The notes: generated by a model from the sequence alone, not told the origin. Shown: positions 15,267 to 58,323, counted from the first letter of the stretch. The stretch: DNA of 64,000 bases from Desulfatiglandales bacterium (GCA_963666345.1 OY762721.1:1856001-1920000), one strand, 5' to 3'. Made by a program: numbers and translations.

Positions 15267-15369
15267 TTTTGCCTGACCTCCTTGGCTTCCTACACGCTGG
15301 ATTCAAGGTGGATCCTGGTTCTGCAGATCCATCATTAAAGCATGGGCATGGTTATTTGTTATACTTAGG

Positions 15370-15527
15370 TAGTTCCCATCCAGAAATGATCCATTTCTGG
15401 ATGTTGCCTTCAGCTGTCAGCTATCAGCAAGTAGCCAATAAATTGATATCTCAAGTGTTTTACTTACTGCTGAGAGCTGATTGCTGATAGCGTGAGTCCA
15501 TAAATCTTGATTTATGGATGAGCACTA
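15370..15527 (+). mobile_element. Repeat family B copy 1: 158-bp MITE/REPIN-like element
   Basis: Imperfect TIRs TAGTTCCCATCCAGAAAT / rc TAGTGCTCATCCATAAAT; terminal hairpins; near-identical copy at 29673-29830. Confidence 0.8.
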
Positions 15528-15612
15528 GGTAATGTTTACAAAAGCCCGGGGATGCGGTCACTTCTCCGTAAGACATAGATAAGGCCGGATGAAAAAGTGC
15601 CGGCGCCGCAGC
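15528..15612 (+). repeat. Repeat family A, right-half fragment (linker fragment at ~15343-15363)
   Basis: AAAGCCCGGGGATGCGGTCACTTCTCCGTAAG...AAGGCCGGA matches the other copies. Confidence 0.85.
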
Positions 15613-15635
15613 TCAGACACCCTTTTAAGGGCACT

Positions 15636-16994
15636 TTATTTACAGCTGGTTCCGGTTTTACTGAAACCGTACAGTGATGAAAGCCTGCGGGGAGAAACAC
15701 CCATAATAATCCCCAGTTCTATGACCTTATTTATCAGGGTGGTTTTACACAGCCCCACCGACCGCCACCTCCTTGCAGATGTGACGGCGCATGCAGGCAG
15801 TGTCCTGATCTTTCCCTTCTTCCTTAAAAAACTTACAAATTTCAGATCCTCTGCAATGGCAATTTCAGGGAACCCTCCATATCTTTCGAAATGCGTTTTT
15901 TTCAAAAAAAGGGCCTGATCACCATAGGGAAACCCCATATAGCGTGAGCGGATGTAGGCACACATTTCAATGAACCGCATGAACGGATGGTCGAGATCCG
16001 TTTTAAAACGAAATGCACCCAGAACCGTGTTGGAATCGACAAGGGCGTCAAATATCATCTTTTTGAATCCGGCCGGAAGAAGAGTGTCCGCGTGAAGGAA
16101 CACAAGGATCTTACCCCCGGCAACTGACGCCCCTGAATTCATCTGAGCACCCCTGCACCTTGCTCCCTTTAAAACTACGGCACCCGCTTTTTCCGCAATC
16201 GCCGCTGTATTGTCACCGCTGCCGCCGTCAACGACTATAATCTCCACTTCATCGTCTCTTATATCCTCAATCAGAGGTCCGATGTTTTCCTCCTCATTCA
16301 GCACAGGGATGATAACTGAAAAAAACGGCCTTTTTGCCGCCTCTTCGGGCCAGGATGCTTCAAGGTCCCTGAATCTGTCTATGTCAATCAATCTGTCCGC
16401 GAATGTAACGGTCAGCCCCGATTTTTCCGCACAACGGACAGTATCATTCAAGACCTTATCAGTCCCCCAGCCTATATCCTTGAAAAGGCATTCCTCTTTT
16501 TTCATGCCTATGAGCCAGTACCCCCCGTCCATACTCGGGCCGATTACCACATCACTTTCTTCAAGGGCGGAAAATGAATCAAGGAGATGTCTGAAATTGA
16601 GGCCCGGGATATCGGCGCCTAAAAGGACCACCTTTCTGCATCCGGCCCTAAAGGCCCCGGCAAAGGCATGGGCCATGCGTTCACCCAGATCGACTCCGAC
16701 CTGGCGGGAATAGATCGTGCCCTTCCCAAGCCATCCGCGCATATCTTCCCTAAAGCCTCCTTCATAGCCCACCTCAACGGCAATACCTCCTCTTTCTGCC
16801 GCCATTGCGACCGTTGCCAGGGTCTTTCGCGTCATGCGGCACTGAAGACAGGCCGCGCCATAAGCCCCGATATCAGGTATAAGGCGCGTTTTTGTCTTTC
16901 CCGGGACGGGGTAACGGGTGAACACTATTATCCTGTCTTCAAGATGACTCGGATCTTCAGGCACCGGGAAACACCTCCCTATAAATGACGACAA
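15636..16994 (-). CDS. Fused TIGR04282 (DUF2064/CofC-like) and TIGR04283 (GT2) glycosyltransferase, arsenosugar-biosynthesis-associated families
   Basis: FTRYPVPGKTKTRL, DLGERM, GPSMDGGYWLIG; then SVIIPVLNEE, VDGGS, FLHADT, PYGDQALF, TSARRW. Confidence 0.85.
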   Translation of the reverse strand: MSSFIGRCFPVPEDPSHLEDRIIVFTRYPVPGKTKTRLIPDIGAYGAACLQCRMTRKTLATVAMAAERGGIAVEVGYEGGFREDMRGWLGKGTIYSRQVGVDLGERMAHAFAGAFRAGCRKVVLLGADIPGLNFRHLLDSFSALEESDVVIGPSMDGGYWLIGMKKEECLFKDIGWGTDKVLNDTVRCAEKSGLTVTFADRLIDIDRFRDLEASWPEEAAKRPFFSVIIPVLNEEENIGPLIEDIRDDEVEIIVVDGGSGDNTAAIAEKAGAVVLKGARCRGAQMNSGASVAGGKILVFLHADTLLPAGFKKMIFDALVDSNTVLGAFRFKTDLDHPFMRFIEMCAYIRSRYMGFPYGDQALFLKKTHFERYGGFPEIAIAEDLKFVSFLRKKGKIRTLPACAVTSARRWRSVGLCKTTLINKVIELGIIMGVSPRRLSSLYGFSKTGTSCK

Positions 16995-17397
16995 AAAATA
17001 TTCGGTTTATTTATATAAGCTTTTATTTATATTGTTAAAAACAAAATATTGACATTTCATCAGCAAAGACTTTATTATACTTCAAGTTTATCACTTTTTA
17101 TCCATATCATGACTGTCTTTGAAAGGACACAGACTCGTAGCATATTATATTCGGGTTATTCTTTGTCATGAGTTCATCTCTTTCCCTGGAATATGCCAGC
17201 CCTGCATGGTGCGATAATTCGCAGATTACCGCTATCCCTGACCAAAATCAAACCTCGATTATAAGGCGCCTGATTTCGGATTCCATGATTATTAAATCAT
17301 CAAAAGGGTCTTCCTTATTTGAAGTCATCTTAAGCGGAAGATCGTCTGTCTCACAGCACCCTTAACAGGTGAACTATGTTAAAGGTATGACTTGTTC

Positions 17398-17691
17398 ATG
17401 GCAATAAAGATCACAAGGGCGGCAAAAAAATACATTGATGAAAAACAAATAAGAACGGTGGTTCTTACCTTTGTGGAGCTGGAGGCAGGGTGCATGGTAG
17501 GGGTGGCAAAGGATATAGACGTCTCTTTTGACCCTCCTGGAAATGAAGAACCCTACCTCAAGAGTAATGTCGAGGGGATAGACATCTATGTTGATAAAAG
17601 GCTCTCTCCTGCAGAAGAGGTGACAATCAGAAAACAGGGATTCTGGAGATTTTCATCCCTTTATGCCGACGGACTCAGGGTGCCCATATAA
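17398..17691 (+). CDS. HesB-like / CC-Se motif family small protein
   Basis: IKITRAAKKYI...GC...EGIDIYVDK pattern typical of the HesB-like fold. Confidence 0.6.
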   Translation: MAIKITRAAKKYIDEKQIRTVVLTFVELEAGCMVGVAKDIDVSFDPPGNEEPYLKSNVEGIDIYVDKRLSPAEEVTIRKQGFWRFSSLYADGLRVPI

Positions 17692-17837
17692 GATGGCGGA
17701 TTAACGTGGTTACATGCCAGGCCCGGGGCGGAACCACTTCGGGGTTATCCCCGATTTTATCAAAGGGGTTTACCGTAATTCAATATTAACAACCTGTTCA
17801 GTGGCAATGCCGCTCAGATAAAGGGAAGGAGGGAGAT

Positions 17838-19553
17838 ATGAATTCATTGGTTTTGGGTTTAATAATGATGATAGGCTTCATAATCGCCTATCATACATAC
17901 GGCAAATTTTTAGGCCGTAAAATTTTTAAACTTGCAGCGGACAATGTATGTCCTTCTCATGAACTAAGGGATGATCTTGATTTTGTCCCCACCAACAAGC
18001 ATATTTTGTTCGGTCATCACTTCACCTCGATCGCGGGTCTGGGACCGATTGTGGGCCCTGCCATAGCCATCATCTGGGGATGGGTGCCGGCGGTTCTGTG
18101 GGTGTTCTTCGGATCGATATTTTTCGGAGCGGTCCATGACTTCGGTGCCCTTATCGTTTCTCTCAGGCACCAGGGAAGATCCATCGGGGATCTCTCCGCA
18201 GACCTCATCAACAATCGGGTAAGAACCCTTTTCCTGCTTATAATATTTTTTCTTCTCCTTATAGTAATCGCCGTTTTCGCCCTTATAATAGCCATCCTTT
18301 TCAACATGTATCCCCAGGCCGTCATCCCTGTATGGTTCGAGATACCCATAGCCCTCTGGCTGGGGAACCAGGTCTATAAAAAGGGCGGCGACCATGTAAA
18401 GCTGGGTATTGTGGCTGTTGTTATCATGTATATTACGGTTGTAATAGGCGCATACGTACCGATCGACCTTAAGGCGGTCATGGGAGCTAAGGGGTCACTG
18501 GTCTTCTGGATGATAGTGCTTTTTGTCTACTCCTATATCGCATCCACGCTTCCGGTGCAGACGCTGCTGCAGCCAAGGGACTACATCAACAGCCATCAGC
18601 TTTTCGTGGCCTTTGCCCTGCTTATCCTGGGGGTCTTCGTGTCTCATCCTGCCATAATCGCACCCGCGTTTGATGCGTCTCCAAAGGGGGCTCCGCCTGT
18701 CTGGCCGTTTCTTTTCGTGGTAATAGCCTGCGGCGCCATATCCGGTTTTCACTCCCTTGTAAGCTCCGGGACTTCATCAAAGCAGTGCTACTCGGAAAGC
18801 GACGCCCGCTATGTGGGTTACGGTTCAATGCTGATGGAAGGCACCCTTTCCACACTGGTTATAGTAGCGGTTGCCGGAGGAATAGGGCTCGGCCTTGCCA
18901 CCAAGGGGGGGGAAGTTCTGACAGGTACTGCGGCATTCACACACCACTACGCATCCTGGGCGGCGGCAGCCGGACTGGGTGCAAAGATAGGCGCATTTGT
19001 AAAGGGATCCGCCAACATGATCCAGGCTTACGGGGTGCCTGCAAAGATAACAATCACGATCATGGGAGTCTTCATAGTCTCCTTTGCGGCCACAACCCTT
19101 GATACGGCAACCAGGCTCCAGCGCTACGTAATCGCTGAGCTGGCAACCGCCTACAAGATGCCCAAGCTTGCCGAGCGTCACCCGGCCACACTTATCGCGG
19201 TGATTACCGCCTTTATCCTGGCATTCTACAACGGCTCAGGGAGCGGTGCCCTTACACTCTGGCCCCTTTTCGGCACCTGCAACCAGCTCCTGGGTGCTCT
19301 CGCCCTGCTGGTTATAACGGTCTATCTTGCCAAGAAAAAGGTCCCGACCTTCTATACCCTCATCCCGATGATCTTCATGGTCATAATGACGGGCTGGGCA
19401 ATGATACTCAACCTCAAGAATTATGTGGCAACCGCAAACTGGCTCCTCTTCATAATCGGACTCATTGTTTTCATCCTTGAGATCTGGATGATAATCGAGT
19501 CCTATCTCTTCCTGAAGAAGGGGACCGGAATGGAGGCGGCGCAGGCTACGTAG
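17838..19553 (+). CDS. cstA: Carbon starvation CstA family peptide/pyruvate transporter
   Basis: LFGHHFTSIAGLGPIVGP, LLQPRDY, IACGAISGFH, GYGSMLMEG. Confidence 0.92.
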   Translation: MNSLVLGLIMMIGFIIAYHTYGKFLGRKIFKLAADNVCPSHELRDDLDFVPTNKHILFGHHFTSIAGLGPIVGPAIAIIWGWVPAVLWVFFGSIFFGAVHDFGALIVSLRHQGRSIGDLSADLINNRVRTLFLLIIFFLLLIVIAVFALIIAILFNMYPQAVIPVWFEIPIALWLGNQVYKKGGDHVKLGIVAVVIMYITVVIGAYVPIDLKAVMGAKGSLVFWMIVLFVYSYIASTLPVQTLLQPRDYINSHQLFVAFALLILGVFVSHPAIIAPAFDASPKGAPPVWPFLFVVIACGAISGFHSLVSSGTSSKQCYSESDARYVGYGSMLMEGTLSTLVIVAVAGGIGLGLATKGGEVLTGTAAFTHHYASWAAAAGLGAKIGAFVKGSANMIQAYGVPAKITITIMGVFIVSFAATTLDTATRLQRYVIAELATAYKMPKLAERHPATLIAVITAFILAFYNGSGSGALTLWPLFGTCNQLLGALALLVITVYLAKKKVPTFYTLIPMIFMVIMTGWAMILNLKNYVATANWLLFIIGLIVFILEIWMIIESYLFLKKGTGMEAAQAT

Positions 19554-19569
19554 ACATTAAACATAAACC

Positions 19570-19607
19570 AACAGAAAAGCCCGGTAACATTACCGGGCTT
19601 TTCTGTT
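19570..19607. terminator. Intrinsic terminator after cstA
   Basis: Perfect inverted repeat AACAGAAAAGCCCGGTAA / TTACCGGGCTTTTCTGTT. Confidence 0.85.
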
Positions 19608-19659
19608 TCAGAAACAAAAAAAGACTCACCTGCCCATTTCCTCGTATCTCTTTTTGCTA

Positions 19660-19935
19660 AAGAACAATTGGAGGAGCGGGGGCTCTTTTTGGAGGCCTTA
19701 TCTCACAAAAAAATGCCACAGGAAGATGCAATGGCCGCAGACAGGGCTTTCCTCCCGGGAGCCCTATCAGTTAAGACAACACTTACAAAAGCCCGGGGAT
19801 GCGGTCACTTCTCCGTAAGGAATAGAATAGAGAAGGCCGGAGAAAGAGTGCCTGCGCCGGAGCGGATGGTCTAAATACACGCGATAAGCGAGAGAAAAAA
19901 CAAAATTCGGGCAGCGTTATTTGTTATCGGTTATA
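19660..19935 (+). repeat. Repeat family A copy (diverged)
   Basis: GGCCTTATCTCACAAAAAAAT...GGCCGCAGAC...CCCGGGAGCCCTATCAG...GGATGCGGTCAC...AAGGCCGGAGAAAGAG followed by GTTATT linker. Confidence 0.9.
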
Positions 19936-20053
19936 AGGAACATCCACTTGAACCCCCGGCACCTTGAATCCTTGGATCCTCATATATAGTTAGACAACAG
20001 CAAAATATACTCACATATTATCAGCAAACAACAATTTGCCTGACGTGCAGCCT

Positions 20054-20929
20054 TTACTCCAATATCTCATAACTGCTTGATGTTACAGGCGCCCTCAGAT
20101 TTGAAAGCACCCTTTCAAGGAGTACCCCTTCTCTTGCAGGATAGCGGTATCCGAAGGTGGCCCTTATTGCCATGGATATGAACTGGACCGCCCTGTCAAG
20201 CGCTATAGGGAGGCTGTCCCCCTGAAGAAGACTTCCCACGATCACGCTTGCGAAGACGTCCCCGGTACCCGGATAGTAGGCGGGGATATAATTACAGTCA
20301 ACCTTCCAGAATCTGCCGTCATCCCTGTCATATGCCACCACCGAGGAAACCTTTTTTTTGCTCGGCACAGGCACACTTGAAAGGATTACCATCCTGGGTC
20401 CTTCCTCTGAAAGACGGACAGCCCAATCCTTTACCTCACTTTCCTCAATGCTCGATTTAAAGGACTCATCCAGCAAAAAGGCCGCTTCAGTAAAATTAGG
20501 AGTTATCACATCGGCCGTCGCGACAAGCCTTTTCATCTGGGCTATCATCTCAGGCCCCATTGTGGAATAGGGCTTTCCGTCATCGCCCATAACCGGATCG
20601 ACTATCACGAGCTGTTCTTTGTGGGAAAAAAATCTTATAAACTCAGACACAATGTCGACCTGTCTGGGGGAGCCCAGAAACCCGCTGTAAACGGCATCAA
20701 AATGAATATCAAGACTCTTCCAGTGTTCGATAAATCCCTCCATTTCCCCTGTAAGATCGACGAACCTGTAATCCTTGAACCCCCCTGTATTGGTGGAAAG
20801 CACCGCCGTAGGAAGGGGGCAGGCCTGAACACCCATGGTTGAAAGTATGGGTATTACAACATTAAGGGATGTCCTTCCGAAACCTGACAGATCATGTATG
20901 GCCGCAACCCGCGGCACGGGATTATTCAT
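20054..20929 (-). CDS. pdxK: Pyridoxamine/pyridoxal kinase
   Basis: HDLSGFGRTSL, DPVMGDDG, TPNFTEA, GTGDVFAS. Confidence 0.9.
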   Translation of the reverse strand: MNNPVPRVAAIHDLSGFGRTSLNVVIPILSTMGVQACPLPTAVLSTNTGGFKDYRFVDLTGEMEGFIEHWKSLDIHFDAVYSGFLGSPRQVDIVSEFIRFFSHKEQLVIVDPVMGDDGKPYSTMGPEMIAQMKRLVATADVITPNFTEAAFLLDESFKSSIEESEVKDWAVRLSEEGPRMVILSSVPVPSKKKVSSVVAYDRDDGRFWKVDCNYIPAYYPGTGDVFASVIVGSLLQGDSLPIALDRAVQFISMAIRATFGYRYPAREGVLLERVLSNLRAPVTSSSYEILE

Positions 20930-21890: not shown

Positions 21891-21900
21891 AAAGCCGGTT

Positions 21901-23472: not shown

Positions 23473-23595
23473 ATCTTCCAGGCCTCCATATTATCGTCCC
23501 GATTCCATGAGCTATTGCTTACAGGTTATCATATCTCATCTGTTTCTCAAAACTGTTCACTCCCCGGCCCATTTTTTTCATATCTCCTAATATTA

Positions 23596-24105
23596 ACGCG
23601 CAAGCGGAGGCGCAGGGACTCTTTCCGGAGGCCTTATCTCACAAAAAAATACCGCAGGCATATGCAGTGGCCGCATATAGGGTTTTCCTCCCGGGAGCCC
23701 TGTGAGATTAGGTACTGTTTACAAAAGCCCGTGGATGCGGTCACTTCTCCGTAAAAATTAGATAAGGCCGGAGAAAGAGCCCCGGTGCCTGAGCGTAACG
23801 AATGCAGATACGCGAAAAGAAAACAGGGGTTATCTGTTATTCGTTATACGGAGAAAAACCAAAAACACACCCCTGTCCTTTCTTTTATACCTTTGTTTGT
23901 TTACGCACAAGAGCAGGTGCCGGAGCTTTTTTTCCGGGCTTCTCTCACAAAAAAATACCACAGGAAGATGCAGTGACCGCAGACCGGGCTTTCTTCCCGG
24001 GTGCCCTATCAGTTAAGGTAACATCTGCAAAAGCCCAAGGATGCGGTCACTTCTCCGTAAAAAATAGAGAAGGCCGGAGAAAGAGCCCCGGCGCCTGAGC
24101 GTACT
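23596..24105 (+). repeat. Repeat family A, tandem head-to-tail copies (period 307 bp)
   Basis: CAAG anchor at 23601 and 23908; two hairpin cores joined by the linker. Confidence 0.92.
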
Positions 24106-24145
24106 ACATAACAGACAGCGGGTGGATTTCTCCCCCTATAAAGAC

Positions 24146-24187
24146 AAAAAAGGCAAGACCCTATCTTAGTTGAGGGACTTGCCTTTT
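24146..24187 (-). terminator. Probable terminator of the aminotransferase gene
   Basis: AAAAGGCAAG-ACCCT...AGGG-ACTTGCCTTTT. Confidence 0.6.
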
Positions 24188-24208
24188 AAATCCGGGGGCT
24201 GATTCGCA

Positions 24209-29631: not shown

Positions 29632-29670
29632 TAGTTCTCATCCGTGGTTGCATTTCCGGATGGGAATCTA
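29632..29670. repeat. Minimal 39-bp element with family B termini
   Basis: TAGTTCTCATCCG...CGGATGGGAATCTA. Confidence 0.55.
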
Positions 29671-29672
29671 AT

Positions 29673-29830
29673 TAGTTTCCATCCAGAAATGAATCATTTC
29701 TGGATGTTGCCTTCAGCCGTCAGCTATCAGTAAGTAGCCAACAAATTGATATCTCAAGTGTTTTACTGACTGCTGAGAGCTGATTGCTGATATCATGAGC
29801 CCGTAAATCTTGATTTATGGATGAGCACTA
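29673..29830 (+). mobile_element. Repeat family B copy 2 (158 bp)
   Basis: Same length and near-identical to 15370-15527; terminal CTA is the stop codon of the adjacent CDS. Confidence 0.8.
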
Positions 29831-31282
29831 ATTAGGGGTGCACGCCCTTCCCTTTAGGTGAAAAAAGAACTTCAGCCCCTTTTTGACCGTATCAGAAAAA
29901 ATCCTTGGTGAAAAATAGGTCCCTGCCACCCGCTTGTTTATCTCTCCCAGCGTGGGATAAGGATGAACGGCGGAGGCCAGAGTCGAAAGCTTTACCCTGC
30001 CGTTTAAGACCGCGACCCACTCGCTCAAAAGCTCGCCTGCATGGGGACCCGCGATCTGGACTCCGATCGGTTTTTCCCTTGAATCCAGCAGCATCTTAAT
30101 CCTGCCTGCCCCCTCCCCTTCTGCAAGGCCCCTGTCATTGTCTTTGAATTCCTCTATATACAACTTGAAATCTATTCCCGCGGCCTTTGCAACCTTTTCA
30201 TTCATCCCGATGCTCGCCAGCTCCGGCTCGGTATAGGTGCACCAGGGGAGGAAGGTATAATCCGCCTTTCTCGGAAGACGAAACAGGGCGTTACTCAAAA
30301 CGATTGCCCCTTCATAACCTGCCGCATGTGTAAACTGATACCTGCCCGTGACATCTCCTGCCGCATATATATGTTTACGCGAGGTTTTCATGCGGGCATC
30401 CGTTGATATGCCTTTTTCATCACATTCAACACCGATCGCTTCAAGATTGAGCCCCTCGGTATTAGCCTTTCTTCCAAGGGCCACAAGGAGAGTTTCCGCC
30501 TTGATCGACACCTCTTTTCCCTCTGAGGTATCGATTCTAACGACCCTGGCATTTCCCTTATCCTCTGCGGACACGACCCTGGAGTTAAGGTAAAATTTGA
30601 CCCCTTCGGAACTCAAGGTCTCCATGACCAGGTCCGCCATGTCTTTATCCTCCCTGCTCAGGATCTGCCCGCTTCGCTGAACCACCGTGACAACTGTACC
30701 CAGACGGCGGAAGGCCTGGGCCATTTCAACGGCTAGCGGCCCGGCCCCCAGGATTATCATCGATTCAGGAAGGGACCTAAGAGAAAAAAGCTCCCTGTTG
30801 GTGATAAATGTTGATCCTTCAAGACCGGGTATATCGGGTATGCCTGCAGAGGACCCTGTTGCTATGACCCAGTTTCTGGCGGAAAAAGTCCCTGCTCCGA
30901 GATCTATTGTATGAGAATCGATAAATCCCGGTTCACCGAATTCCACTCTTGCGCCCAGAGAGCAGAAGCGTTCCTCGGAATCATAAGCCTGAATGGTATT
31001 TATCACGGATTGAATCCTTGCCGCCACCTTGCTGAAATCAACAGGGGGGATATCGACCTTGGGCAGTCCATGGTCTTTATGTCTTTTCATGAGATGATAG
31101 ACATGGGCCGACCTTATAAGGGTCTTGCTCGGAACGCACCCGAAGTGCAGGCAGTCACCACCGAGAGATTCCTCCTTTTCTATCAAAAGGGTTCTTGCTC
31201 CAAGCTGGGCCGCCCCGGATGCAACGGTGAGGCCCGCGGCCCCTCCTCCTATTATACCTATATCAAAATCATAATCCGGCAT
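29828..31282 (-). CDS. Pyridine nucleotide-disulfide oxidoreductase (MerA/LpdA-like)
   Basis: GGGAAG, GGDCLHFGCVPSK, AAGDV, HPYPT; no MerA C-terminal CC pair. Confidence 0.88.
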   Translation of the reverse strand: MPDYDFDIGIIGGGAAGLTVASGAAQLGARTLLIEKEESLGGDCLHFGCVPSKTLIRSAHVYHLMKRHKDHGLPKVDIPPVDFSKVAARIQSVINTIQAYDSEERFCSLGARVEFGEPGFIDSHTIDLGAGTFSARNWVIATGSSAGIPDIPGLEGSTFITNRELFSLRSLPESMIILGAGPLAVEMAQAFRRLGTVVTVVQRSGQILSREDKDMADLVMETLSSEGVKFYLNSRVVSAEDKGNARVVRIDTSEGKEVSIKAETLLVALGRKANTEGLNLEAIGVECDEKGISTDARMKTSRKHIYAAGDVTGRYQFTHAAGYEGAIVLSNALFRLPRKADYTFLPWCTYTEPELASIGMNEKVAKAAGIDFKLYIEEFKDNDRGLAEGEGAGRIKMLLDSREKPIGVQIAGPHAGELLSEWVAVLNGRVKLSTLASAVHPYPTLGEINKRVAGTYFSPRIFSDTVKKGLKFFFHLKGRACTPN

Positions 31283-36884: not shown

Positions 36885-36975
36885 TACTGACAGCTGAGAG
36901 CTTGTACGCCGTCTTTTTGGCGTACTGATTGCTGATAGCATGAGTCCATAAATCTTGATTTATGGATGAATACTG
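36885..36975 (+). repeat. Repeat family B right-half fragment with an inserted mini-hairpin
   Basis: GCTGAGAGC...TGATTGCTGATAGCATGAGTCCATAAATCTTGATTTATGGATG. Confidence 0.75.
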
Positions 36976-36976
36976 A

Positions 36977-37552
36977 CTAATAGTTTTCTCCCAGCAATTC
37001 AAAATGAGCCTGAGGGTGGGCACAGGCGGGACATAGTTCCGGAGCCTCATCTCCTGTAAAGATATAGCCGCAGTTCCTGCATCTCCAGACCACCTCTTTC
37101 TCCCTTTTAAATACACGACCTGCTTCAATATTTGCCGCCAGATCATTGTAGCGCTTTTCATGCTGCTTTTCCGCAACCGCGATTGCCTCAAAAACCGCCG
37201 CTATCACGCCGAAACCTTCCTGTCTGGCCGTTTCAGCAAAACCGGGGTACATCTCAGTATGCTCATAGTTTTCGCCTGCCGCAGACGCCTTGAGATTGTC
37301 CACGGTATTTCCTATTACGCCTGCCGGGAAGGCCGCCGTGATTTCCGTTTCACCGCCTTCCAGGAATTTGAAGAGCCTCTTGGCATGTTCCTTTTCCTGG
37401 TTGGCTGTCTCCTCGAATATGGCGGAAATCTGCACAAAGCCTTCCTTTTTGGCCTTGCTTGCAAAATAGTTATACCGGTTTCTCGCCTGAGATTCCCCCG
37501 CAAAGGCGGTTAACAAGTTTTTTTCCGTCCGGCTTCCTTTCAAATCCATCAA
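36977..37552 (-). CDS. rbr: Rubrerythrin
   Basis: [33 protein letters not shown]. Confidence 0.95.
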
Positions 37553-46992: not shown

Positions 46993-47059
46993 TTCTAATT
47001 TGTTCCTTTCCTTTACTCTTTAATTTTTACGACTTTGTAAAAAGTCCATTCTTGTACCT

Positions 47060-47277
47060 CGTTTGCACACAAGAGCAGGTGCCGGGGCTCTTTCAGGAGG
47101 CCTTATCTCACAAAAAAATACCACAGGAAGATGCAGTGGCCGCAGACCGCGCTTTCTTCCCGGGAGCCCTATCAGCTTAGGTAATGCATACAAAAGCCCG
47201 GGGATGCGGCCACTTTTCCGTAAGAAATAGAGAAGGCCGGAGAAAGAGTGCCGGCGCCTGCGCGCACCGGCTGCAGC
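47060..47277 (+). repeat. Repeat family A copy abutting the purD stop codon
   Basis: Complete hairpin core GCAGGTGCCGG...CCGGCGCCTGC. Confidence 0.92.
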
Positions 47278-49425: not shown

Positions 49426-49857
49426 CTACAGATTATACACCTGACTGCCCGGGATCACGGTAAAACCTTTTTCCTGAAGCACGTCTATCGCCTCATCTGT
49501 CCGGTCGAACCTGAAGATGATCAGCGCCTTTTCCTTGCTTCTTTCAACAAATGCATAGGTATATTCGGTGCTGATGTTCTTTTCCGAGAGCGCCGCCAGA
49601 ATGCTGTAAAAACCTCCCGGACGGTCCGGCACTGCAACTGCAACCACAAAGGTCCTCCTGACGGTGAATCCCTTTTCCTGAAGTGCCTTTTCAGCCTTGT
49701 CAATATCGTTTACAATTATGCGGAGGATTCCGAAGTCAGAGGTATCGGCCAGAGACAGCGCCCTGATATTGATTTCCTTTTCGCCAAGCACCTTGGCCGC
49801 CTGTTCAAGCATTCCGGGTTTATTTTCCAGAAATATGGAAAGCTGCTCAACTTTCAT
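49426..49857 (-). CDS. Tandem ACT-domain protein
   Basis: QLSIFLENKPG, ADTSDFGILR, PDRPGG. Confidence 0.9.
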   Translation of the reverse strand: MKVEQLSIFLENKPGMLEQAAKVLGEKEINIRALSLADTSDFGILRIIVNDIDKAEKALQEKGFTVRRTFVVAVAVPDRPGGFYSILAALSEKNISTEYTYAFVERSKEKALIIFRFDRTDEAIDVLQEKGFTVIPGSQVYNL

Positions 49858-49871
49858 GGACCTATCTCCTC

Positions 49872-51173: not shown

Positions 51174-51561
51174 ATCGTCTTCCTCTCCTTTTATTCACCT
51201 TCAAAATAGACGCCCTCAGGAGGTATAATCGGAGACCTTCCTTCTGCGGGCCTAGCGTGTAAAAGCGGACCTGCTGTCCATATTCTCTTTAACTGATAGT
51301 TCCGCCTGGAGGGCGGAATCAGGGACTGACCGAGAGCATTAAAATTCAGGTATGTTTTTCATGTCAACATTTCTTTTTGCGGTTATATTAAACACTATTT
51401 CATTTACGATCTCAAGGCAGGCGGCGCCAGGTGAGAACTTTTTGTTAATTTAAGACCGGAGCCCCGCTTCGTTCAACGCCTTTACCCTCACGCCTTCGGC
51501 ACTTACCCCTGTTTCATTCGGCCAGAAACAGATACCCATTTTCTTGTTCAATTTTCTGCCA

Positions 51562-51890
51562 TACACACAAGAGCAGGTGCCGGAGCTGTTTCAGGAGGCC
51601 TTATCTCACAAAAAAATACCACAGGAAGTTCCAGTGGCCGTAGACCGGGCTTTCCTCCCGGGAGCCCCATCAGTTCGGGTAACGCCTGCAAAAGCCCGGG
51701 GATACGGCCGCTTTTCCGTAACACATAGAGAAGGCCGGATGAAAGAGTGCCGGCGCCTGCGCGCACCGGCTAAAGATGCGAGAAAAGAAAAAAAGGGGCA
51801 TGGTTATTTTATACGGAAAAACCGGAAACGCACCCCTGTCCATTATTTTATACCTTTGTTTGTTTGCGCACAAGAGCAGGTGACGGAGCG
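51562..51890 (+). repeat. Repeat family A, one unit plus start of a second (period 303 bp)
   Basis: CAAGAGCAGG at 51568 and 51871. Confidence 0.92.
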
Positions 51891-52041
51891 TGACCAAGTA
51901 AATAAAATAAGACTCACACCCATAGATGTTGACCCGGACTATTGTTTATGAATAATATCAAGAGTTGGAATATTTTATTTAAGACCCCTTTCGGCAATCT
52001 AAAATCAAGCTTTACCCGGAGGCCCAGGCCCTTTCTTAATT

Positions 52042-53466: not shown

Positions 53467-53480
53467 GTGGAGCGCATACT

Positions 53481-54845
53481 ATGGAAACAATTCTTATAGT
53501 GGACGACGAAAAAAATTATCTGGTGGTTCTGGAGGCGCTGCTTTCACCGGAAGGATATGAAATACTTACCTGTCAAAACGCCAAAGATGCATTGGAGCTT
53601 ATAAGGAACTCCGATCTTGATCTGGTCATTACGGACATGAAGATGCCCGGCATGAGCGGTATGGAACTGCTGAAAAGCTGCAAAGCCATGAAATCCGAGC
53701 TGCCCGTAATAATAATGACCGCATTCGGTACTATCGAAATGGCGGTTGAGGCGATGAGAGAGCAGGCCTATGATTACATAACCAAGCCGTTTCAAAATGA
53801 AGAACTGAAGCTGACCGTAAAAAAGGCCCTGAAAAACTTCCGCCTTGTAAAGGAAAACATACGGCTCAACGAGGCACTGACCGACAGGTTCAAATATGGG
53901 AATATGGTCGGCAAAAGCTCACCCATGCTCAAGATATACGATATCATCGACAAGGTTGCCCAGTCAAAGGCCTCCGTGCTAATAACCGGACCCTCCGGAA
54001 CCGGAAAGGAACTGATAGCAAAGGCCATTCACTATGGAAGCCCGAGAAAGGATGAACCCTTTATCTCCATAAATTGCGGAGCACTCACGGAGACCCTCCT
54101 TGAAAGTGAGCTGTTCGGCCATGAGAGGGGTGCCTTTACAGGGGCCGTGGCAATGAAAAAGGGGCGGTTTGAAATGGCGGACGGCGGCACCCTGTTTCTT
54201 GACGAGGTGGGTGAAATGCCTCCCCCCCTGCAGGTAAAACTGCTGAGAGTTCTGCAGGAAATGGAATTTGAAAGGGTTGGAGGTACAAGATCGATAAAGG
54301 TTGACGTGCGTGTTCTTTCAGCATCCAACAGAGATATCAAGGACGATGTCTCAAAAGGCGTTTTCCGGGAAGACCTCTTTTACAGGCTTAATGTCATTAA
54401 AATCGACGTGCCCCCTTTATGTGAAAGAACGGATGACCTCCCCCTGCTTGTAAGGCACTTTATTCAGAAATATAAAGAGGAAGGTTCGTCGGAGACATCA
54501 GGATTAAGCCCTGAGGCGTGGAAGGCTATTTATTCATATGGCTGGCCCGGAAACGTCAGGGAGCTTGAAAACGTCATTGAAAGGGCGGTAGTTCTCAACT
54601 CCGGAGGCACCATTTCGGCTGAAGACCTGCCTGATGAACTGACCGGCGCTGAAACCGAATTTGATGTGGACAGATTCGTCCCTGTAAATATACCTCTTCC
54701 TGAAGCACTTGAAAGGATTGAAGAAAAACTGATAAGACGTGCACTTTCCCAAAACAAAAATATACAGGCCCATGCTGCAAGGATGCTCGGAATTACAAAA
54801 AGCCTGATACAGCATAAAATGAAGAAGTACAATATCAATGTTTAG
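53481..54845 (+). CDS. Sigma54-dependent response regulator (NtrC family)
   Basis: REC, GPSGTGKE, GAFTGA, WPGNVREL, HTH. Confidence 0.95.
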   Translation: METILIVDDEKNYLVVLEALLSPEGYEILTCQNAKDALELIRNSDLDLVITDMKMPGMSGMELLKSCKAMKSELPVIIMTAFGTIEMAVEAMREQAYDYITKPFQNEELKLTVKKALKNFRLVKENIRLNEALTDRFKYGNMVGKSSPMLKIYDIIDKVAQSKASVLITGPSGTGKELIAKAIHYGSPRKDEPFISINCGALTETLLESELFGHERGAFTGAVAMKKGRFEMADGGTLFLDEVGEMPPPLQVKLLRVLQEMEFERVGGTRSIKVDVRVLSASNRDIKDDVSKGVFREDLFYRLNVIKIDVPPLCERTDDLPLLVRHFIQKYKEEGSSETSGLSPEAWKAIYSYGWPGNVRELENVIERAVVLNSGGTISAEDLPDELTGAETEFDVDRFVPVNIPLPEALERIEEKLIRRALSQNKNIQAHAARMLGITKSLIQHKMKKYNINV

Positions 54846-54846
54846 C

Positions 54847-54941
54847 GGTTTAAAATATTGTATCCATGTTTTTACTGTAAATTCAAAGCGTTAAACCGAA
54901 ATAGCAATCCATGGGCGATATTGGGTACAATATTTTGTACC
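54847..54941. promoter_or_regulatory. Two candidate enhancer sites
   Basis: GGTACAA-TATT-TTGTACC at 54924-54941; a 15/18 match to its reverse complement (GGTTTAAAATATTGTATC) at 54847-54864. Confidence 0.6.
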
Positions 54942-55037
54942 TTTTATGCCCAGGCAAAAAAGGGTCACGCCTGACATCCTGCTTAAATATTCAATTAATT
55001 CAATAGATTACCAATTTACCGCAAAATAAAGAGGGAT

Positions 55038-55053
55038 TGGCAGGCATATTGCA
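55038..55053 (+). promoter_or_regulatory. Sigma54 promoter
   Basis: TGGCAGGCATATTGCA (GG-N10-GC); IHF-like ATTCAATAGATTA at 54998-55010. Confidence 0.75.
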
Positions 55054-55062
55054 TAATCTATT

Positions 55063-55123
55063 GTCAGTCAAATTACTCTTTCCTCCTAAAAAACCAACCG
55101 TCCTTAAGGGCGGTTGGTTTTTT
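55063..55123 (+). ncRNA. Candidate ~60-nt sigma54-dependent small RNA
   Basis: No credible ORF between promoter and terminator; single-stranded ACUCUUUCCUCCU seed. Confidence 0.55.
55088..55123. terminator. Bidirectional intrinsic terminator
   Basis: AAAAAACCAACCGTCC-TTAA-GGGCGGTTGGTTTTTT. Confidence 0.88.
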
Positions 55124-55192
55124 ATACCCTGCTCCAAAATGCGCCACATGCTGAAGCCGCAAGATTTTATCCAATCGGCCTGTATGCCGGCA

Positions 55193-56077
55193 TCAATAGC
55201 CCAGATTTCGAAGGATCCTCGAATCTCTGCTCCAGTTTCTGGACACTACCACTGTAAGATCAAGAAAGATCCTGCTTCCGAATATCTGTTCAAGCTCCTT
55301 CCTGGCCGAGGTGCCGATCTCCTTTATGTTTTCACCTCTGCGGCCGATAAATATCTTCTTCTGAGACTCCGTTTCCACATGTATGCGTGCCTTAATTGAA
55401 ACAAGGTTTCTTTCAGATGCCTCGCCAATGGTATCAACAGTCACGGCGGATGAGTAGGGAAGCTCTTTTTTCATTCGCAGATAGATCTTTTCTCTTATGA
55501 TTTCAGAGACCATAAAGGACTCGGACTGATCGGTTTCCATATCAGGGGGGAAAAACTGAGGTCCCTTGTCAAGTCTTGACCTCAATTCATCAACAACGGC
55601 GTCAATACCCTCTCCATTCAAAGCGGACACAGGCAAAAAGGCCTCAAAAGGAAATTTACCCCTGTAGTGATCAATAATAGGGAGGAGTGCCTCTTTCGGC
55701 CTGATATCGATCTTGTTGATAACCAGAAGGCAGGGCTTTTTCAGGTCACGCATCCTCCTTAAAATATTGGATGATTCCTGATCAAAGGCCTTTTGGGTTT
55801 CTATCATAAGAAGGAGGATATCGACCTCATTGAACGCGGCGTATGAGGACTCCACCATGCTTTTGTGGAGAGCCGTCCTGGGCCTGTGGATACCGGGGGT
55901 ATCCACGAATACGATCTGGGAATTCTCCCCGTTCAAGATCCCCATTATCCTGTTGCGGGTAGTCTGCGGCCTGGCAGAGACAATCGCAAGCTTTGCGCCT
56001 GTAATTCGGTTTAAAAGCGTCGATTTACCTACATTAGGCGCCCCGAATATGCCGACGAAACCGGAATAAAAGCTCAT
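55193..56077 (-). CDS. era: GTPase Era
   Basis: GAPNVGKS, PQTTR, DTPG, NKID, KH domain; ATG overlaps upstream TGA. Confidence 0.95.
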   Translation of the reverse strand: MSFYSGFVGIFGAPNVGKSTLLNRITGAKLAIVSARPQTTRNRIMGILNGENSQIVFVDTPGIHRPRTALHKSMVESSYAAFNEVDILLLMIETQKAFDQESSNILRRMRDLKKPCLLVINKIDIRPKEALLPIIDHYRGKFPFEAFLPVSALNGEGIDAVVDELRSRLDKGPQFFPPDMETDQSESFMVSEIIREKIYLRMKKELPYSSAVTVDTIGEASERNLVSIKARIHVETESQKKIFIGRRGENIKEIGTSARKELEQIFGSRIFLDLTVVVSRNWSRDSRILRNLGY

Positions 56078-57108
56078 AAGCACTCCACCCTGATCGTTCC
56101 CCGGCTGATGGCGGACCCCTCTCTTACATCCGAGACCCTGGCCCCGCTTTTCATCTCTATCCATTTCATCCCCTCGTTTTTGTAGCCTCTGATAAGCGGG
56201 ATGTCTCTCTTGTTTGCATATATCATAATCTCCGAAGCCTTGCCCGGCCCGGGAAGGGACCCGGCCATTCTTACGCGGAATATCTCAGACCTTACCAAAA
56301 ACCCGAAGGCGCAATGCCAGGGGCCTCCCAATATCTGGCCCTTTTCCAGTAGGGATGGGGAACTCATCAGTCCTATCCTTATGACAGGGATCCCTTCCGC
56401 CTCAATTCGCATGCACGCCTTTGAGCAGAGATCGACCGCCTCTTTCAGCTCAAGAGGTTTATACCTTCCGTTTTCATACCATTCAGCCATTTCAGTCCCC
56501 TTTATCACAAGGGCCGGGTAGATCCTTACCATATCAGGTTTAAGAGCGACAACCTTTTCCACCGTCTCGAAAAAGCCTTCGGCACTGTCACCGGGAAGAC
56601 CGGGCATAAGCTGCATCCCGACCCTGAAACCGGCGTCTTTGAGTTTCTCAAACGCATTGATTGTATCAGAGGAACCATGCCCCCGGTTGGTAAGGCTCAA
56701 CACCTTGTCGTCCATAGACTGCACACCCAGTTCCACTGTCTCGACATGATAGTACTTGAGCGTGTCAAGACGTCTGTCCGCAAGCGCGTCCGGCCGTGTC
56801 GAAACACGAATCGTTTTAAAAAGGCCTTGCCTTATATAAGGTTCGGTAGCATTTAGCAGTTCCGTCATTTTGTCAAAAGGCAGTCGTGTGAAGGTGCCGC
56901 CGTAAAAGGCGATCTCCGGATTTCGCTCGGGATCAAAGCCCCTGGAGGCAACGGCCGTGTCCAGGGTTTTCCTCACATCCTGAGCACTCACGGCCCCTGC
57001 CGACCGGGATGTAATCCGCTCCTGTTCACAGAAGATACAGCGATGCGGACAGCCATGATGGGGGATAAAAATGGGAACTATAAACGGTTTCAAATCTCTT
57101 TCAGACAA
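56074..57108 (-). CDS. Elp3/YhcC-like radical SAM protein
   Basis: CPHRCIFC, FYGGTFT, STRPD, ELGVQS. Confidence 0.88.
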   Translation of the reverse strand: MSERDLKPFIVPIFIPHHGCPHRCIFCEQERITSRSAGAVSAQDVRKTLDTAVASRGFDPERNPEIAFYGGTFTRLPFDKMTELLNATEPYIRQGLFKTIRVSTRPDALADRRLDTLKYYHVETVELGVQSMDDKVLSLTNRGHGSSDTINAFEKLKDAGFRVGMQLMPGLPGDSAEGFFETVEKVVALKPDMVRIYPALVIKGTEMAEWYENGRYKPLELKEAVDLCSKACMRIEAEGIPVIRIGLMSSPSLLEKGQILGGPWHCAFGFLVRSEIFRVRMAGSLPGPGKASEIMIYANKRDIPLIRGYKNEGMKWIEMKSGARVSDVREGSAISRGTIRVECL

Positions 57109-57782
57109 AAATACGCAGTTTCCGCTGCCTTTTGTTCTGCCTCCTTTTTACTCTTGCCCTCACCTTCCGAAATAATGTCATCGTTTATGCTGAGGGCGAT
57201 CTTGAATCTCCTGTCATGCGCGGGCCCGGTTTCCTCAAGCAATCTGTATCTTGGAAGCACCTTGTAGAGCTGCTGTGTATGCTCCTGAAGGAGGCTTTTG
57301 AAATCACGGCCTGTCTTTGCCTTTCCAAGGGCCTTCAACTGTGTGGAAAACAATCTGCCGATTATCTCAAGGGTCCGCTCAAACCCGGCATCAAGGTATA
57401 TGGCACCCAAAAGGGCCTCCACGGTATCCGAGAGTATAGAAGGTTTTTCCCTTCCCCGGCTCCTCTCCTCCCCCTTGCCCAGCATCAGAAATTCACCCAG
57501 GTTCAAAGATTCCGCAATTACGTACAGACCTGCCTCATCCACAATCATTGCCCGGAATTTTGACAGCACCCCTTCCTCGGCATCATTGAAAAGTTCCATC
57601 AGGATATGACTCACACCCAGATCCAGCACCGCATCACCGAGAAACTCCAGCCGCTCGTTGTCCTTGAGAGCTGAATCTGGTTGTTCATTTACATAGGATG
57701 AGTGCCTGAAGGCCTGCCCAAGCAGATCCATATCCCTGAATTTGTAGCCAAGCCTTTCACTTAGTTCATTAAATTTTTCCAT
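57090..57782 (-). CDS. rnc: Ribonuclease III
   Basis: NERLEFLGDAVL, dsRBD KSKKEAEQ. Confidence 0.96.
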   Translation of the reverse strand: MEKFNELSERLGYKFRDMDLLGQAFRHSSYVNEQPDSALKDNERLEFLGDAVLDLGVSHILMELFNDAEEGVLSKFRAMIVDEAGLYVIAESLNLGEFLMLGKGEERSRGREKPSILSDTVEALLGAIYLDAGFERTLEIIGRLFSTQLKALGKAKTGRDFKSLLQEHTQQLYKVLPRYRLLEETGPAHDRRFKIALSINDDIISEGEGKSKKEAEQKAAETAYFCLKEI

Positions 57783-57960
57783 ATCAATTTTCTTGATTTA
57801 AAGGGGCATTGTCTTGGCCCATATGATTTTATTGACCTTTTGCCCTGTCAGCTTTCCTAAATTCTGATTAAAAGTGCCGGTTCTGAATAATATGAATTCT
57901 CCTCTCCTTTTTCAAGAAAAGATAGGAAAAGAATTCAAAGGGCCTCAGCCGCCCAGACGT

Positions 57961-58323
57961 GCAGCGTTATTGGTTATTGGTTATTGGTTATACGTTATAC
58001 GGAAAAACCGGGAATACACCCTGTCCAGCCTTTTATACCTTTGTTTGTTTACGCGCAAGCGCAGGCGCCGCGGCTCTTTTTCCGGCCTTATCTCACAAAA
58101 AATACCACAGGAACATGCAGTGGCCGCAGACCGCGCTTTCTTCCCGGGAGCCCTATCAGCTTAGGTAATGCATACAAAAGCCCGGGGATGCGGCCACTTT
58201 TCCGTAAGGAATAGAGAAGGCCGGAGAAAGAGTGCCGGTGCCTGTGCACACCGGCTACAGATGCGCGAAAAGAAAAAAGGGGCATGGTTATTTGTTATTC
58301 GTTATACGAAAAAACCGGGAATA
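57961..58323 (+). repeat. Repeat family A, one unit flanked by directly repeated linker (period 307 bp)
   Basis: GTTATACG-[G/A]AAAAACCGGGAATA at 57994 and 58301; (GTTATTG)3 microrepeat. Confidence 0.92.

What the first reader, a model, noticed from the sequence alone, without database searches (positions are those of the whole stretch)
15343..58323. Family A: ~305-bp structured repeat with covariation, permuted ends and one orientation
Seen: six loci (15343-15612 partial, ~19660, 23596 tandem, 47060, 51562, 57961), all in + orientation whether flanking genes are convergent, divergent or tandem. The period is 307, 303 and 307 bp at three loci, and copies start and end at different registers with no TIR or TSD evident. 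The ~185-nt core folds into nested stems (GCAGGTGCCGG/CCGGCGCCTGC, CTCTTTC/GAAAGAG, GGCCT/AGGCC, AGTGGCCGCA/TGCGGCCACT). Compensatory changes occur: AGTGACCGCA/TGCGGTCACT (23972/24042) and AGTGGCCGTA/TACGGCCGCT (51633/51703) versus 47135/47205. Several other variants in these stems are G-U compatible on the + strand only. Inference: a single-stranded structured element under selection. It could be an undescribed ncRNA, or a non-autonomous element spreading via circular or multimeric (rolling-circle/HUH- or RT-dependent) intermediates.
Basis: partly seen in the sequence, partly recalled or inferred. Interest (0 to 1): 0.85.

Follow-up and report, generated by a model that had tools for sequence, protein, structure and literature searches.

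The report
Modular one-strand hairpin repeat between genes
A non-coding repeat of about 300 bases that folds into one long hairpin sits, always on the same strand, between ordinary genes of an anaerobic bacterium; it looks like a new variety of the palindromic intergenic repeats known in other bacteria, not a proven new RNA gene.

Summary
Seven core copies at six loci, all on the + strand, match a 25-base pattern expected 0.01 times by chance. Periods are 306, 303 and 307 bp, and every quoted stem is at the stated coordinate.

The anatomy is more ordered than "permuted ends". The unit is P plus S. P is a ~260-280-nt imperfect palindrome: a U-rich leader, the 190-nt core and an A-rich trailer. 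S is a 20-55-nt spacer of GTTATNN heptamers. Arrays read S-P-S-P, and most ends fall near S/P junctions.

The hairpin is conserved: 94.8% of cells pair. Covariation is thin: 4 double-change pairs, reached by 7 of 500 shuffles. The + strand folds better and carries the G-U wobbles.

There is no Rfam match. The window holds no transposase, HUH or RT gene and no conserved promoter. The repeat has no defined ends or target duplication. Translated copies, including a tandem dimer, occur on other public contigs.

Best reading: a lineage-restricted, non-autonomous palindromic intergenic repeat, like ERIC or BIME, acting through a single-stranded + strand hairpin. An sRNA family and a rolling-circle origin remain open but unsupported.

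The parts
15346..15364 (+). Locus 15: start of spacer module S (GCATGG plus two GTTATNN heptamers). It is cut off at the family-B insertion.
15519..15625 (+). Locus 15: 3' half of a family-A core. It resumes at the TAGGTA duplicated by the family-B MITE and runs to the stop codon of ORF 15636-16994 (-).
19616..19945 (+). Locus 19: partial S, then P (core 19659-19872), then S (19911-19945, three heptamers). It spans 0.94 units by local alignment. It lies between the bidirectional terminator after cstA (19570-19607) and the stop codon of the pdxK-like gene.
23513..24109 (+). Locus 23: degenerate S, P (core 23595-23803), S (23828-23867, three heptamers), P (core 23902-24109). It spans 1.88 units. 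The two cores are only 80% identical.
47044..47276 (+). Locus 47: a single P trimmed at both ends (core 47064-47272). It fills the 285-bp gap between the purD stop codon and the start of a radical-SAM gene.
51497..51889 (+). Locus 51: degenerate leader, P (core 51562-51771), S (51798-51830), a conserved leader, then the first ~25 nt of a second core (51865-51889), where it is truncated.
57961..58323 (+). Locus 57: S (57961-58016, five heptamers), P (core 58050-58256), S (58282-58323, three heptamers). It spans 1.18 units, and both outer ends coincide with S boundaries.

Best explanation
Family A is a lineage-restricted, non-coding, modular intergenic repeat. It belongs to the same broad kind as ERIC, BIME/REPIN and BOX elements.

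Anatomy (shown). The unit is ~300-320 bp and has two modules.
- P is a ~260-280-nt imperfect palindrome. A pyrimidine-rich leader (CACCCCTGTCC-TTTCTTTT..) pairs with a purine-rich trailer (..GAAAAGAAAA-AGGGG) around the 190-nt core, so the whole module folds into one long bulged hairpin with a ~35-nt apical loop.
- S is a 20-55-nt spacer of 1-5 exact-period GTTATNN heptamers followed by ACGGAAAAACC.
Units lie head to tail (S-P-S-P), all on one strand. They decay by truncation and by insertion of another MITE.

Mechanism (inferred).
- The repeat is non-autonomous. It is copied as S-P units by an enzyme encoded elsewhere in the genome.
- Arrays grow both by insertion next to resident copies and by unequal exchange or slippage.
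- The form that matters is a single-stranded + strand hairpin, either RNA or DNA. That would explain why stem variants are tolerated as G-U/G-T on that strand.
- Local effects on neighbouring transcripts (hairpin or terminator-like) are likely by-products.

What is shown: anatomy, conservation, strand asymmetry and presence on other contigs. What is inferred: mobility, the trans-acting enzyme and the active strand.
For: 1. Copy contexts. The six loci sit in unrelated intergenic settings: three between tandem (-) genes, one convergent and two divergent. They occupy 6 of the 23 gaps of at least 120 bp. The neighbours are housekeeping genes.
2. Palindrome. The covariance model hits the same loci on the - strand at 20-41 bits. 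The leader-trailer helix is predicted in P23a, P51 and P58.
3. Dispensable copies. There is a half copy with a nested family-B MITE at locus 15, a second core truncated after ~25 nt at locus 51, and a trimmed copy at locus 47.
4. Modular arrays. Ends fall at phase 0 and 7 (start of S), 42-62 (S/P junction), 23 and 55 (in S and at its end) and 281-299 (end of P). One exception lies at phase 109. Heptamers are spaced exactly 7 nt apart, at 1 to 5 copies per S.
5. Array history. The two cores at locus 23 are 80% identical, no closer than copies at other loci (78-95%). The two units in P0003 are nearly identical in the core and have a 318-nt period.
6. Strand asymmetry. C/T-polymorphic columns outnumber A/G ones in paired columns (11:7) but not in unpaired ones (4:8).
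7. Narrow distribution. The pattern found 0 matches in 185,579 species-representative genomes. Plasmids gave 0 real hits and phages gave none. The model found 0 hits in 1.4 Mb of unrelated loci. Even so, 10 ORF clusters translated from copies exist on other contigs, one of them 4.16 Mb long.
8. No Rfam family matches.
Against: - No terminal inverted repeat with sharp ends and no target-site duplication was found by inspecting the boundaries.
- No transposase, RAYT, IS200-like or RT gene is in the window, so mobility is unshown.
- No empty site could be compared, because no close relative's DNA was reachable.
- Unpaired core segments such as UCUCACAAAAAAAUACC and CAAAAGCCC are as conserved as the stems: 61% of unpaired against 73% of paired columns are invariant. 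That fits a functional RNA as well as a young repeat.
- The better-folding + strand is the C-rich strand. GC skew is negative on the + strand in 14 of 16 4-kb bins, and 39 of the 52 ORFs I took as genes are on the - strand. It is therefore probably the leading-strand template and the template strand of most genes, the strand least exposed as single-stranded DNA.
- The sample is six full copies and one half copy. Covariation rests on 4 pairs.
- The G-U counts on the + structure are inflated because the structure was predicted on that strand. The - strand prediction has 48 G-U cells of its own, mostly in an alternative pairing of invariant columns.
Confidence: 0.45

Rival explanations
1. A family of paralogous small-RNA genes. 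Each P, or its 190-nt core, is transcribed from the + strand from a promoter in S or the leader. It ends at the long hairpin followed by the U-rich S, and the RNA acts in trans.
For: - All copies share one orientation.
- The + strand folds better, and G-U wobbles fall on that strand.
- There are compensatory pairs.
- Long unpaired stretches are strongly conserved.
- The base of the leader-trailer helix is followed by a U-rich S.
- Tandem sRNA paralogues are known in other bacteria (recalled, not tested here).
Against: - The simple consensus scan reported no sigma-70-like site in the leader next to any core.
- The leaders of four of the six full cores are degenerate, though their cores are 78-90% identical.
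- At locus 19 only about 20 nt separate a strong terminator from P, which leaves no room for a promoter.
- Truncated and MITE-disrupted copies exist.
- No RNA data are available.
Confidence: 0.2
2. A passive cis element of - strand mRNAs. The repeat is co-transcribed with the mostly - strand genes around it, and its hairpin acts as a terminator, stabiliser or RNase target. The uniform orientation reflects selection on what the transcribed strand folds into.
For: - In 5 of 6 loci the element lies directly upstream of a - strand gene start (15266, 23472, 46992, 51173, 57782), and 39 of 52 ORFs are on the - strand.
- At locus 19 it lies between the pdxK-like stop codon and the shared terminator.
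- In three copies a - strand hairpin, GCCGGTGCGCGCAGGCGCCGGC followed by a T-rich tail, sits at the right end of the core. Its wobble pairs form on the - strand only.
- The - strand fold is also far below its shuffles, with z from -1.5 to -5.2.
Against: - Stem variants favour + strand pairing, not - strand pairing.
- Two loci are in divergent gaps, where no terminator is needed.
- In another assembly a copy follows a transketolase gene in the opposite relative orientation, with the + strand of A on that gene's coding strand (P0007).
- The neighbouring genes are functionally unrelated.
Confidence: 0.15
3. The copies are integrated pieces of a circular or multimeric intermediate made by rolling-circle (HUH, IS91 or Helitron-like) or reverse-transcriptase copying, which would explain units that start and end in different registers.
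For: - Arrays are head to tail with fractional units.
- No TIR or TSD is evident.
- All copies share one orientation.
- A relative carries a dimer of nearly identical units.
Against: - Lengths are not whole multiples of the unit, and the left and right phases of a locus differ (0 to 55, 7 to 286, 42 to 23, 89 to 109).
- Most ends cluster near S/P junctions instead of being spread round the unit.
- The two units at locus 23 are 80% identical, so they are not a fresh concatemer.
- No HUH or RT gene is in the window.
- There is no ribozyme match.
- The better-folding strand is probably not the lagging-strand template that IS200/IS605-type elements use (the expectation is recalled from the literature).
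Confidence: 0.1

Closest known systems
REP / BIME / REPIN elements with RAYT transposases (PMC2817692, PMC3337134 and PMC3116915: search listing and start of abstract only)
   Same: Both are non-coding and intergenic. Both are built from two inverted arms separated by linkers. Both are arranged as regularly spaced mosaic arrays of variable length and are thought to act as single-stranded hairpins. Neither has a classic TIR/TSD signature.
   Different: The arms here are about 75-120 nt against 20-40 nt. No GTAG or CGTC head was seen by eye. The unit is about 300 bp against about 100 bp or less. The spacer is a heptamer microsatellite. No RAYT gene is in the window.
ERIC/IRU of enterobacteria (Delihas review PMC3184786: passages read with 'find')
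   Same: The whole element is one imperfect palindrome. It lies in intergenic, often transcribed DNA. It has species-restricted abundance and no coding capacity, and its effects on mRNA fate have been proposed.
   Different: ERIC is about 127 bp with TIRs and flanking TA (PMC3184786). Family A's P module is about twice as long, has no TA or TSD that I could find, forms S-P arrays, and shows one orientation in all 7 copies.
BOX elements of Streptococcus pneumoniae (named as a tandem array of repeat modules in PMC3184786; details recalled)
   Same: Both are modular and non-coding, with a variable number of an internal module, and are predicted to form stable RNA structure.
   Different: There is no sequence or structural similarity. 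BOX modules are 45-59 bp (recalled). The variable module here is a 7-nt repeat.
IS200/IS605-derived palindrome-associated elements and other HUH-mobilised repeats (recalled)
   Same: Neither has a TIR or a TSD. Both depend on a strand-specific hairpin and have a uniform orientation within a chromosomal region.
   Different: No conserved short target word lies to the left of the copies. There are no distinct subterminal left-end and right-end hairpins. The strand that folds better is probably the leading-strand template. No tnpA gene is in the window.
STRR heptanucleotide repeats of heterocystous cyanobacteria (recalled; one search found no paper on them)
   Same: S is a tandem run of 7-nt units in intergenic DNA. 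The only plasmid hit to the query was a 33-nt run of the same heptamer in a cyanobacterial plasmid.
   Different: Here the heptamer run is a fixed module of a larger palindromic unit, not a free-standing array.

Membership tests
Any Rfam 15 family (including ribozymes, HEARO and IS605-orfB type RNAs, and 6S) | A match to the family's covariance model at its gathering score | tested here: not met
   There were 0 matches at gathering score in the whole window. In E-value mode on three loci the best hits were hairpin ribozyme at 18.4-18.8 bits (cut-off 65) and SQ2397 at 18.9 bits (cut-off 100).
MITE | Terminal inverted repeats at sharply defined ends | tested here: inconclusive
   P is an imperfect palindrome along its whole length. 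However, copy ends are ragged and differ between loci.
MITE | Target-site duplication flanking each copy | tested here: not met
   Inspection of the 12 array ends showed none. As a contrast, the family-B MITE nested at locus 15 and its copy at 29675 show 7-bp duplications.
MITE | A related autonomous IS with matching ends | not testable with these tools
   No transposase is in the window, and the rest of the genome was not available.
REP/BIME/REPIN | A 20-40-nt REP hairpin with a conserved GTAG or CGTC head | tested here: not met
   The arms are 75 nt or longer, and no such head was seen in the alignment.
REP/BIME/REPIN | Inverted arms at regular spacing in mosaic arrays | tested here: met
   Arrays are S-P-S-P with periods of 303-307 bp here and 318 nt in P0003.
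REP/BIME/REPIN | A cognate RAYT gene flanked by the repeats | not testable with these tools
   None is in the window, and the genome was not available.
IS200/IS605-type non-autonomous element | A conserved short target word directly 5' of the left end, distinct left-end and right-end hairpins, and the active strand on the lagging-strand template | tested here: not met
   The left flanks share no word. The better-folding strand is the C-rich + strand. The strand expectation is recalled, and the direction of replication is inferred from skew alone.
Integron attC array | 57-141-bp sites with R''/L''-L'/R' cores that separate ORF cassettes next to intI | tested here: not met
   P is 260-280 nt. 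Units are separated by 20-55 nt with no ORF. Loci are dispersed over 43 kb of housekeeping genes, and no integrase is present.
Independent sRNA gene | Its own promoter and terminator, and a discrete transcript | tested here: inconclusive
   The simple consensus scan reported no sigma-70-like site next to the cores. A terminator-like arrangement (long hairpin followed by a U-rich S) exists but is not canonical. There are no expression data.

The most novel reading that the evidence does not exclude
The 190-280-nt hairpin is an undescribed structured nucleic acid whose + strand fold is itself under selection. One possibility is a new multi-copy ncRNA class. The other is the cis-acting single-stranded form of a new kind of non-autonomous element, copied head to tail, in which the variable heptamer spacer sets where copying or transcription starts and stops. 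The evidence does not exclude this. Stem variation is biased to + strand wobble in the window and in six further copies. Unpaired segments are strongly conserved. The S-P array recurs in another genome.
Probability: 0.2. Interest if true: 0.7.

Novelty: new variant of a known kind. Interest (0 to 1): 0.4.

Why it matters
If this is only a palindromic intergenic repeat, it is a tidy and apparently undescribed example: large, modular, with a heptamer microsatellite as a fixed module. It would be useful for strain typing and for annotating spurious ORFs in this lineage. At least 10 ORF clusters in public protein sets are translations of it.

If the + strand fold is truly selected, it becomes a tractable case for an old question: how REP-, ERIC- and BOX-like repeats are copied, and whether they work as RNA or as single-stranded DNA. 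The strand asymmetry gives a direct prediction for RNA-seq and for orientation against replichore in a complete genome.

Tried and rejected
- Rfam. I searched at gathering score over the whole window and in E-value mode on three loci. Only chance-level hits appeared.
- Exact-pattern scan of the 185,579-species genome collection: 0 hits.
- The second and last scan used PurD. It returned only gammaproteobacterial loci at 60-67% identity, with no close relative and no synteny. The covariance model found nothing in those 1.4 Mb. Empty-site comparison, genome-wide orientation and the search for a linked HUH or RT gene therefore stayed undone.
- blastn against plasmids gave only a 33-nt heptamer run. 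blastn against phages gave nothing.
- ORF trick. The 135-aa + frame ORF found itself and one other copy. A - frame ORF found nothing. A profile of frame-a translations found 9 representatives, and the 90%-cluster search found 8 proteins. These give proteins only, no DNA.
- Back-inference of nucleotides from those proteins was used only where both partners of a pair were unambiguous. Two inferred copies carry an uncompensated mismatch at columns 85/148.
- Promoter and terminator scans found no conserved + strand promoter. They did find a - strand hairpin in three copies.
- Sigma-54 and Bacteroidetes-type promoter words were looked for by eye in S and the leader. The spacing does not fit and the words are not conserved.
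- Integration of a circle. This was rejected because array lengths are not whole units and the end phases differ.
- Coding potential. This was rejected because copies differ by 1-nt indels.
- Literature. Five searches found no description of such an element in sulfate reducers or Desulfobacterales. That is a limited search, not proof of absence.


Full report
**What is there.** A repeat search, an exact-pattern search, nhmmer and a covariance model all recover the same set. There are six full cores of ~205 nt (19659-19872, 23595-23803, 23902-24109, 47064-47272, 51562-51771, 58050-58256) and one 3' half (15519-15625). All are on the + strand, and the 64 kb holds nothing else. The 25-base pattern is expected 0.01 times and occurs 7 times. 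Cores are 78-95% identical and differ by 1-nt indels, so they are not coding. Start-to-start spacings are 306, 303 and 307 bp.

**Context.** The window is an ordinary chromosomal stretch of an anaerobe that resembles a sulfate reducer. It encodes:
- DVU0298-family proteins;
- a formate dehydrogenase interrupted by an in-frame TGA;
- desulfoferrodoxin, rubrerythrins and sigma-54 activators;
- era-rnc, purD, zwf-pgl-gnd and ilvE.

No transposase, HUH protein, reverse transcriptase or integrase is present. Family A fills 6 of the 23 intergenic gaps of at least 120 bp: three between tandem (-) genes, one convergent and two divergent. GC skew is negative on the + strand in 14 of 16 4-kb bins, and 39 of the 52 ORFs I treated as genes are on the - strand. 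The + strand is therefore probably the lagging strand, that is, the leading-strand template.

**Anatomy.** The conserved part extends beyond the 185-nt core.
- Every core is preceded by a pyrimidine-rich leader (..CACCCCTGTCC-ATT-TTTTATACC-TTTGTTTGTTT-ACGCRCAAG).
- Most cores are followed by a trailer: a small hairpin (GYGYA-N11-TRCGC) and then GAAAAGAAAA-AGGGG.
- Leader and trailer are complementary. Folding the full module gives one long bulged hairpin of 260-280 nt, and the outer helix is predicted in P23a, P51 and P58. I call this module P.
- Between successive P modules lies S. S is GCAKSG, then GTTATNN heptamers at exactly 7-nt spacing, then ACGGAAAAACC(GGGAATA). The heptamer count is 5, 3, 3, 3, 2 and 1.

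Local alignment of each locus to a trimer of the locus-57 unit gives these results:

| Locus | Start phase | End phase | Layout | Units |
|---|---|---|---|---|
| 57 | 0 | 55 | S-P-S | 1.18 |
| 23 | 7 | 286 | S-P-S-P | 1.88 |
| 19 | 42 | 23 | partial S-P-S | 0.94 |
| 47 | 62 | 299 | P trimmed at both ends | 0.74 |
| 51 | 89, with a degenerate leader further left | 109 | P-S-start of P | 1.07 |

Locus 15 starts at the first base of S. It then jumps to the middle of the core, at the point where a second repeat is inserted. So the ends are not freely permuted. All but one fall in or next to S.

**Nested element.** The insert at locus 15 (about 15372-15527) belongs to another family, with copies at about 29675-29830 and a partial one at 36925-36981. 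It has ~18-nt imperfect terminal inverted repeats and 7-bp flanking duplications: TAATTAG, and TTAGGTA/CTAGGTA. It landed in the apical loop of a family-A core at TTAGGTA. This shows that family-A copies can be disrupted.

**Structure and covariation.** RNAalifold on the six cores gives 58 pairs in six helices. Of 348 cells, 94.8% pair, against 42-47% when partners are slid by 1-3 columns. Four pairs show changes on both sides, against 1.3 +/- 0.9 in column shuffles, and 7 of 500 shuffles reach four. Thirty-three of the 58 pairs never vary. With six related sequences this is suggestive only. Because P is a palindrome, the hairpin would exist without any selection on RNA.

**Which strand.** Several tests bear on this.
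- On the + strand structure there are 31 G-U cells at 15 pair positions, and 4 A-C cells at 4 positions.
- That count is biased, because the structure was predicted on the + strand. The - strand prediction has 48 G-U cells of its own, largely from an alternative pairing of invariant A-run and G/A-rich columns.
- Fairer test 1: on the 34 pairs common to both predictions, there are 8 G-U and 0 A-C cells.
- Fairer test 2: the core alone folds better as the + strand in 5 of 6 copies with RNA parameters, by 3.6-13.9 kcal/mol, and in 6 of 6 with DNA parameters.
- Fairer test 3: z-scores are -2.3 to -7.4 for the + strand and -1.5 to -5.2 for the - strand, although the + strand has a G+T fraction of 0.46-0.50.
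- Fairer test 4: C/T-polymorphic columns outnumber A/G ones in paired columns (11:7) but not in unpaired ones (4:8). By my estimate this is not significant alone.
- With the flanks included, the two strands fold about equally well.
- One small hairpin at the right end of three cores pairs fully only on the - strand.

Overall the evidence favours the + strand moderately. The strand biases usually expected from replication and transcription would push the other way here (inference).

**Copies elsewhere.** The exact pattern found nothing in the species-representative genome collection. The PurD-based scan returned only distant gammaproteobacterial loci, and the model found nothing in them. Plasmid and phage collections gave nothing real.

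Gene callers sometimes translate the repeat, and this gave an indirect view. A profile of one + frame found 9 representatives. The 90%-cluster search found 8 proteins from JGI, ENA and NCBI contigs of up to 4.16 Mb.
- P0003 contains two tandem units with a 318-nt period, nearly identical cores and a longer heptamer run, translated as RYWLL...
- P0007 is a copy fused behind a transketolase C-terminus (PF22613), with the + strand of the repeat on that gene's coding strand.

I also inferred nucleotides only where the amino acids fix both partners of a pair. Six extra copies then give 65 Watson-Crick, 12 G-U, 0 A-C and 10 other cells, plus 6 pairs that cannot pair. Two of these copies carry an uncompensated mismatch at columns 85/148. 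The family and its S-P array are therefore real beyond this window. The wobble bias recurs, and so do broken pairs.

**What it is not.**
- No Rfam family matches, ribozymes included.
- The simple consensus scan reports no sigma-70-like site next to any core. The leaders of four leftmost cores are much more degenerate than their cores. At locus 19 only ~20 nt separate a strong terminator from P. An autonomous sRNA gene is therefore not supported, though it is not excluded.
- Integration of circles or concatemers predicts whole-unit lengths with equal end phases, or ends spread round the unit. Neither is seen. The tandem cores at locus 23 are only 80% identical.
- No sharp ends, target duplication or conserved left-flank word were found. 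Membership of the MITE and IS200/IS605-derived classes is therefore not met on those features.

**Most likely explanation.** This is a lineage-restricted, non-autonomous, modular palindromic repeat. It is closest in kind to BIME/REPIN arrays and to ERIC, but several times larger and with a heptamer microsatellite as a fixed module. It is propagated as S-P units by a function encoded elsewhere, and a single-stranded + strand hairpin is the relevant form. The anatomy, the strand bias and the wider distribution are shown. The copying mechanism and any effect on neighbouring genes are inferred. I put this at about 0.45, a + strand sRNA family at 0.2, a - strand cis element at 0.15 and a rolling-circle or RT origin at 0.1.

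**Literature.** Five full-text searches found no description of such an element.
- REP/BIME/REPIN definitions come from the listing abstracts of PMC2817692, PMC3337134, PMC3116915 and PMC3733652.
- ERIC features come from passages of PMC3184786.
- Statements on the strand bias of IS200/IS605, on attC sites, on BOX module sizes and on cyanobacterial STRR heptamers are recalled, not checked here.

Noticed in passing
15365-15534; 29668-29837; partial 36925-36981: A second repeat family (family B) that looks like a classic MITE. It is ~158 bp with ~18-nt imperfect terminal inverted repeats, each inside its own small hairpin. It has 7-bp flanking duplications: TAATTAG at 29668/29831, and TTAGGTA/CTAGGTA at locus 15. 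One copy is nested in the apical loop of a family-A core. The third copy has only the right half plus a 24-nt insertion.
   Followed up: partly
11320-14022 (-), stop codon at 12964-12966: The formate dehydrogenase alpha subunit is read as two ORFs joined by an in-frame TGA, in the motif CARL*HSS. This is probably a selenocysteine codon rather than a break. I did not look for a SECIS element.
   Followed up: partly
57965-57998: The left S module of locus 57 holds five exact-period GTTATNN heptamers, and Tandem Repeats Finder reports it as a 7-nt array. Other S modules hold 1-3, and the translated dimer P0003 implies more. The run therefore behaves as a length-variable microsatellite inside the repeat unit.
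   Followed up: partly
1143-4334 and 8781-10340; repeats 2576-2875/8945-9244 and 4171-4254/10550-10633: The direct repeats D3 and D8 are not mobile DNA. They are two paralogous NuoF-like/2Fe-2S ferredoxin gene sets, ~70% identical, each beside a formate-dehydrogenase-type gene.
   Followed up: no
47250-47271, 51749-51770, 58234-58255 (- strand): Three cores of one subfamily carry an 8-bp hairpin, GCCGGTGCGCGCAGGCGCCGGC plus a T-rich tail, that pairs fully only on the - strand. It has a U-G to U-A and a C-G to U-G change in the locus-57 copy. At locus 47 it lies 7 nt after the purD stop codon and could serve as that gene's terminator. It competes with the outer stem of the core.
   Followed up: partly
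protein P0007 (ENA contig of 98 kb; not in the window): In another assembly a family-A copy is read through from the 3' end of a transketolase gene, and the normal C-terminal residues appear to be replaced. A copy may have landed in, or right at, the end of a coding region.
   Followed up: no
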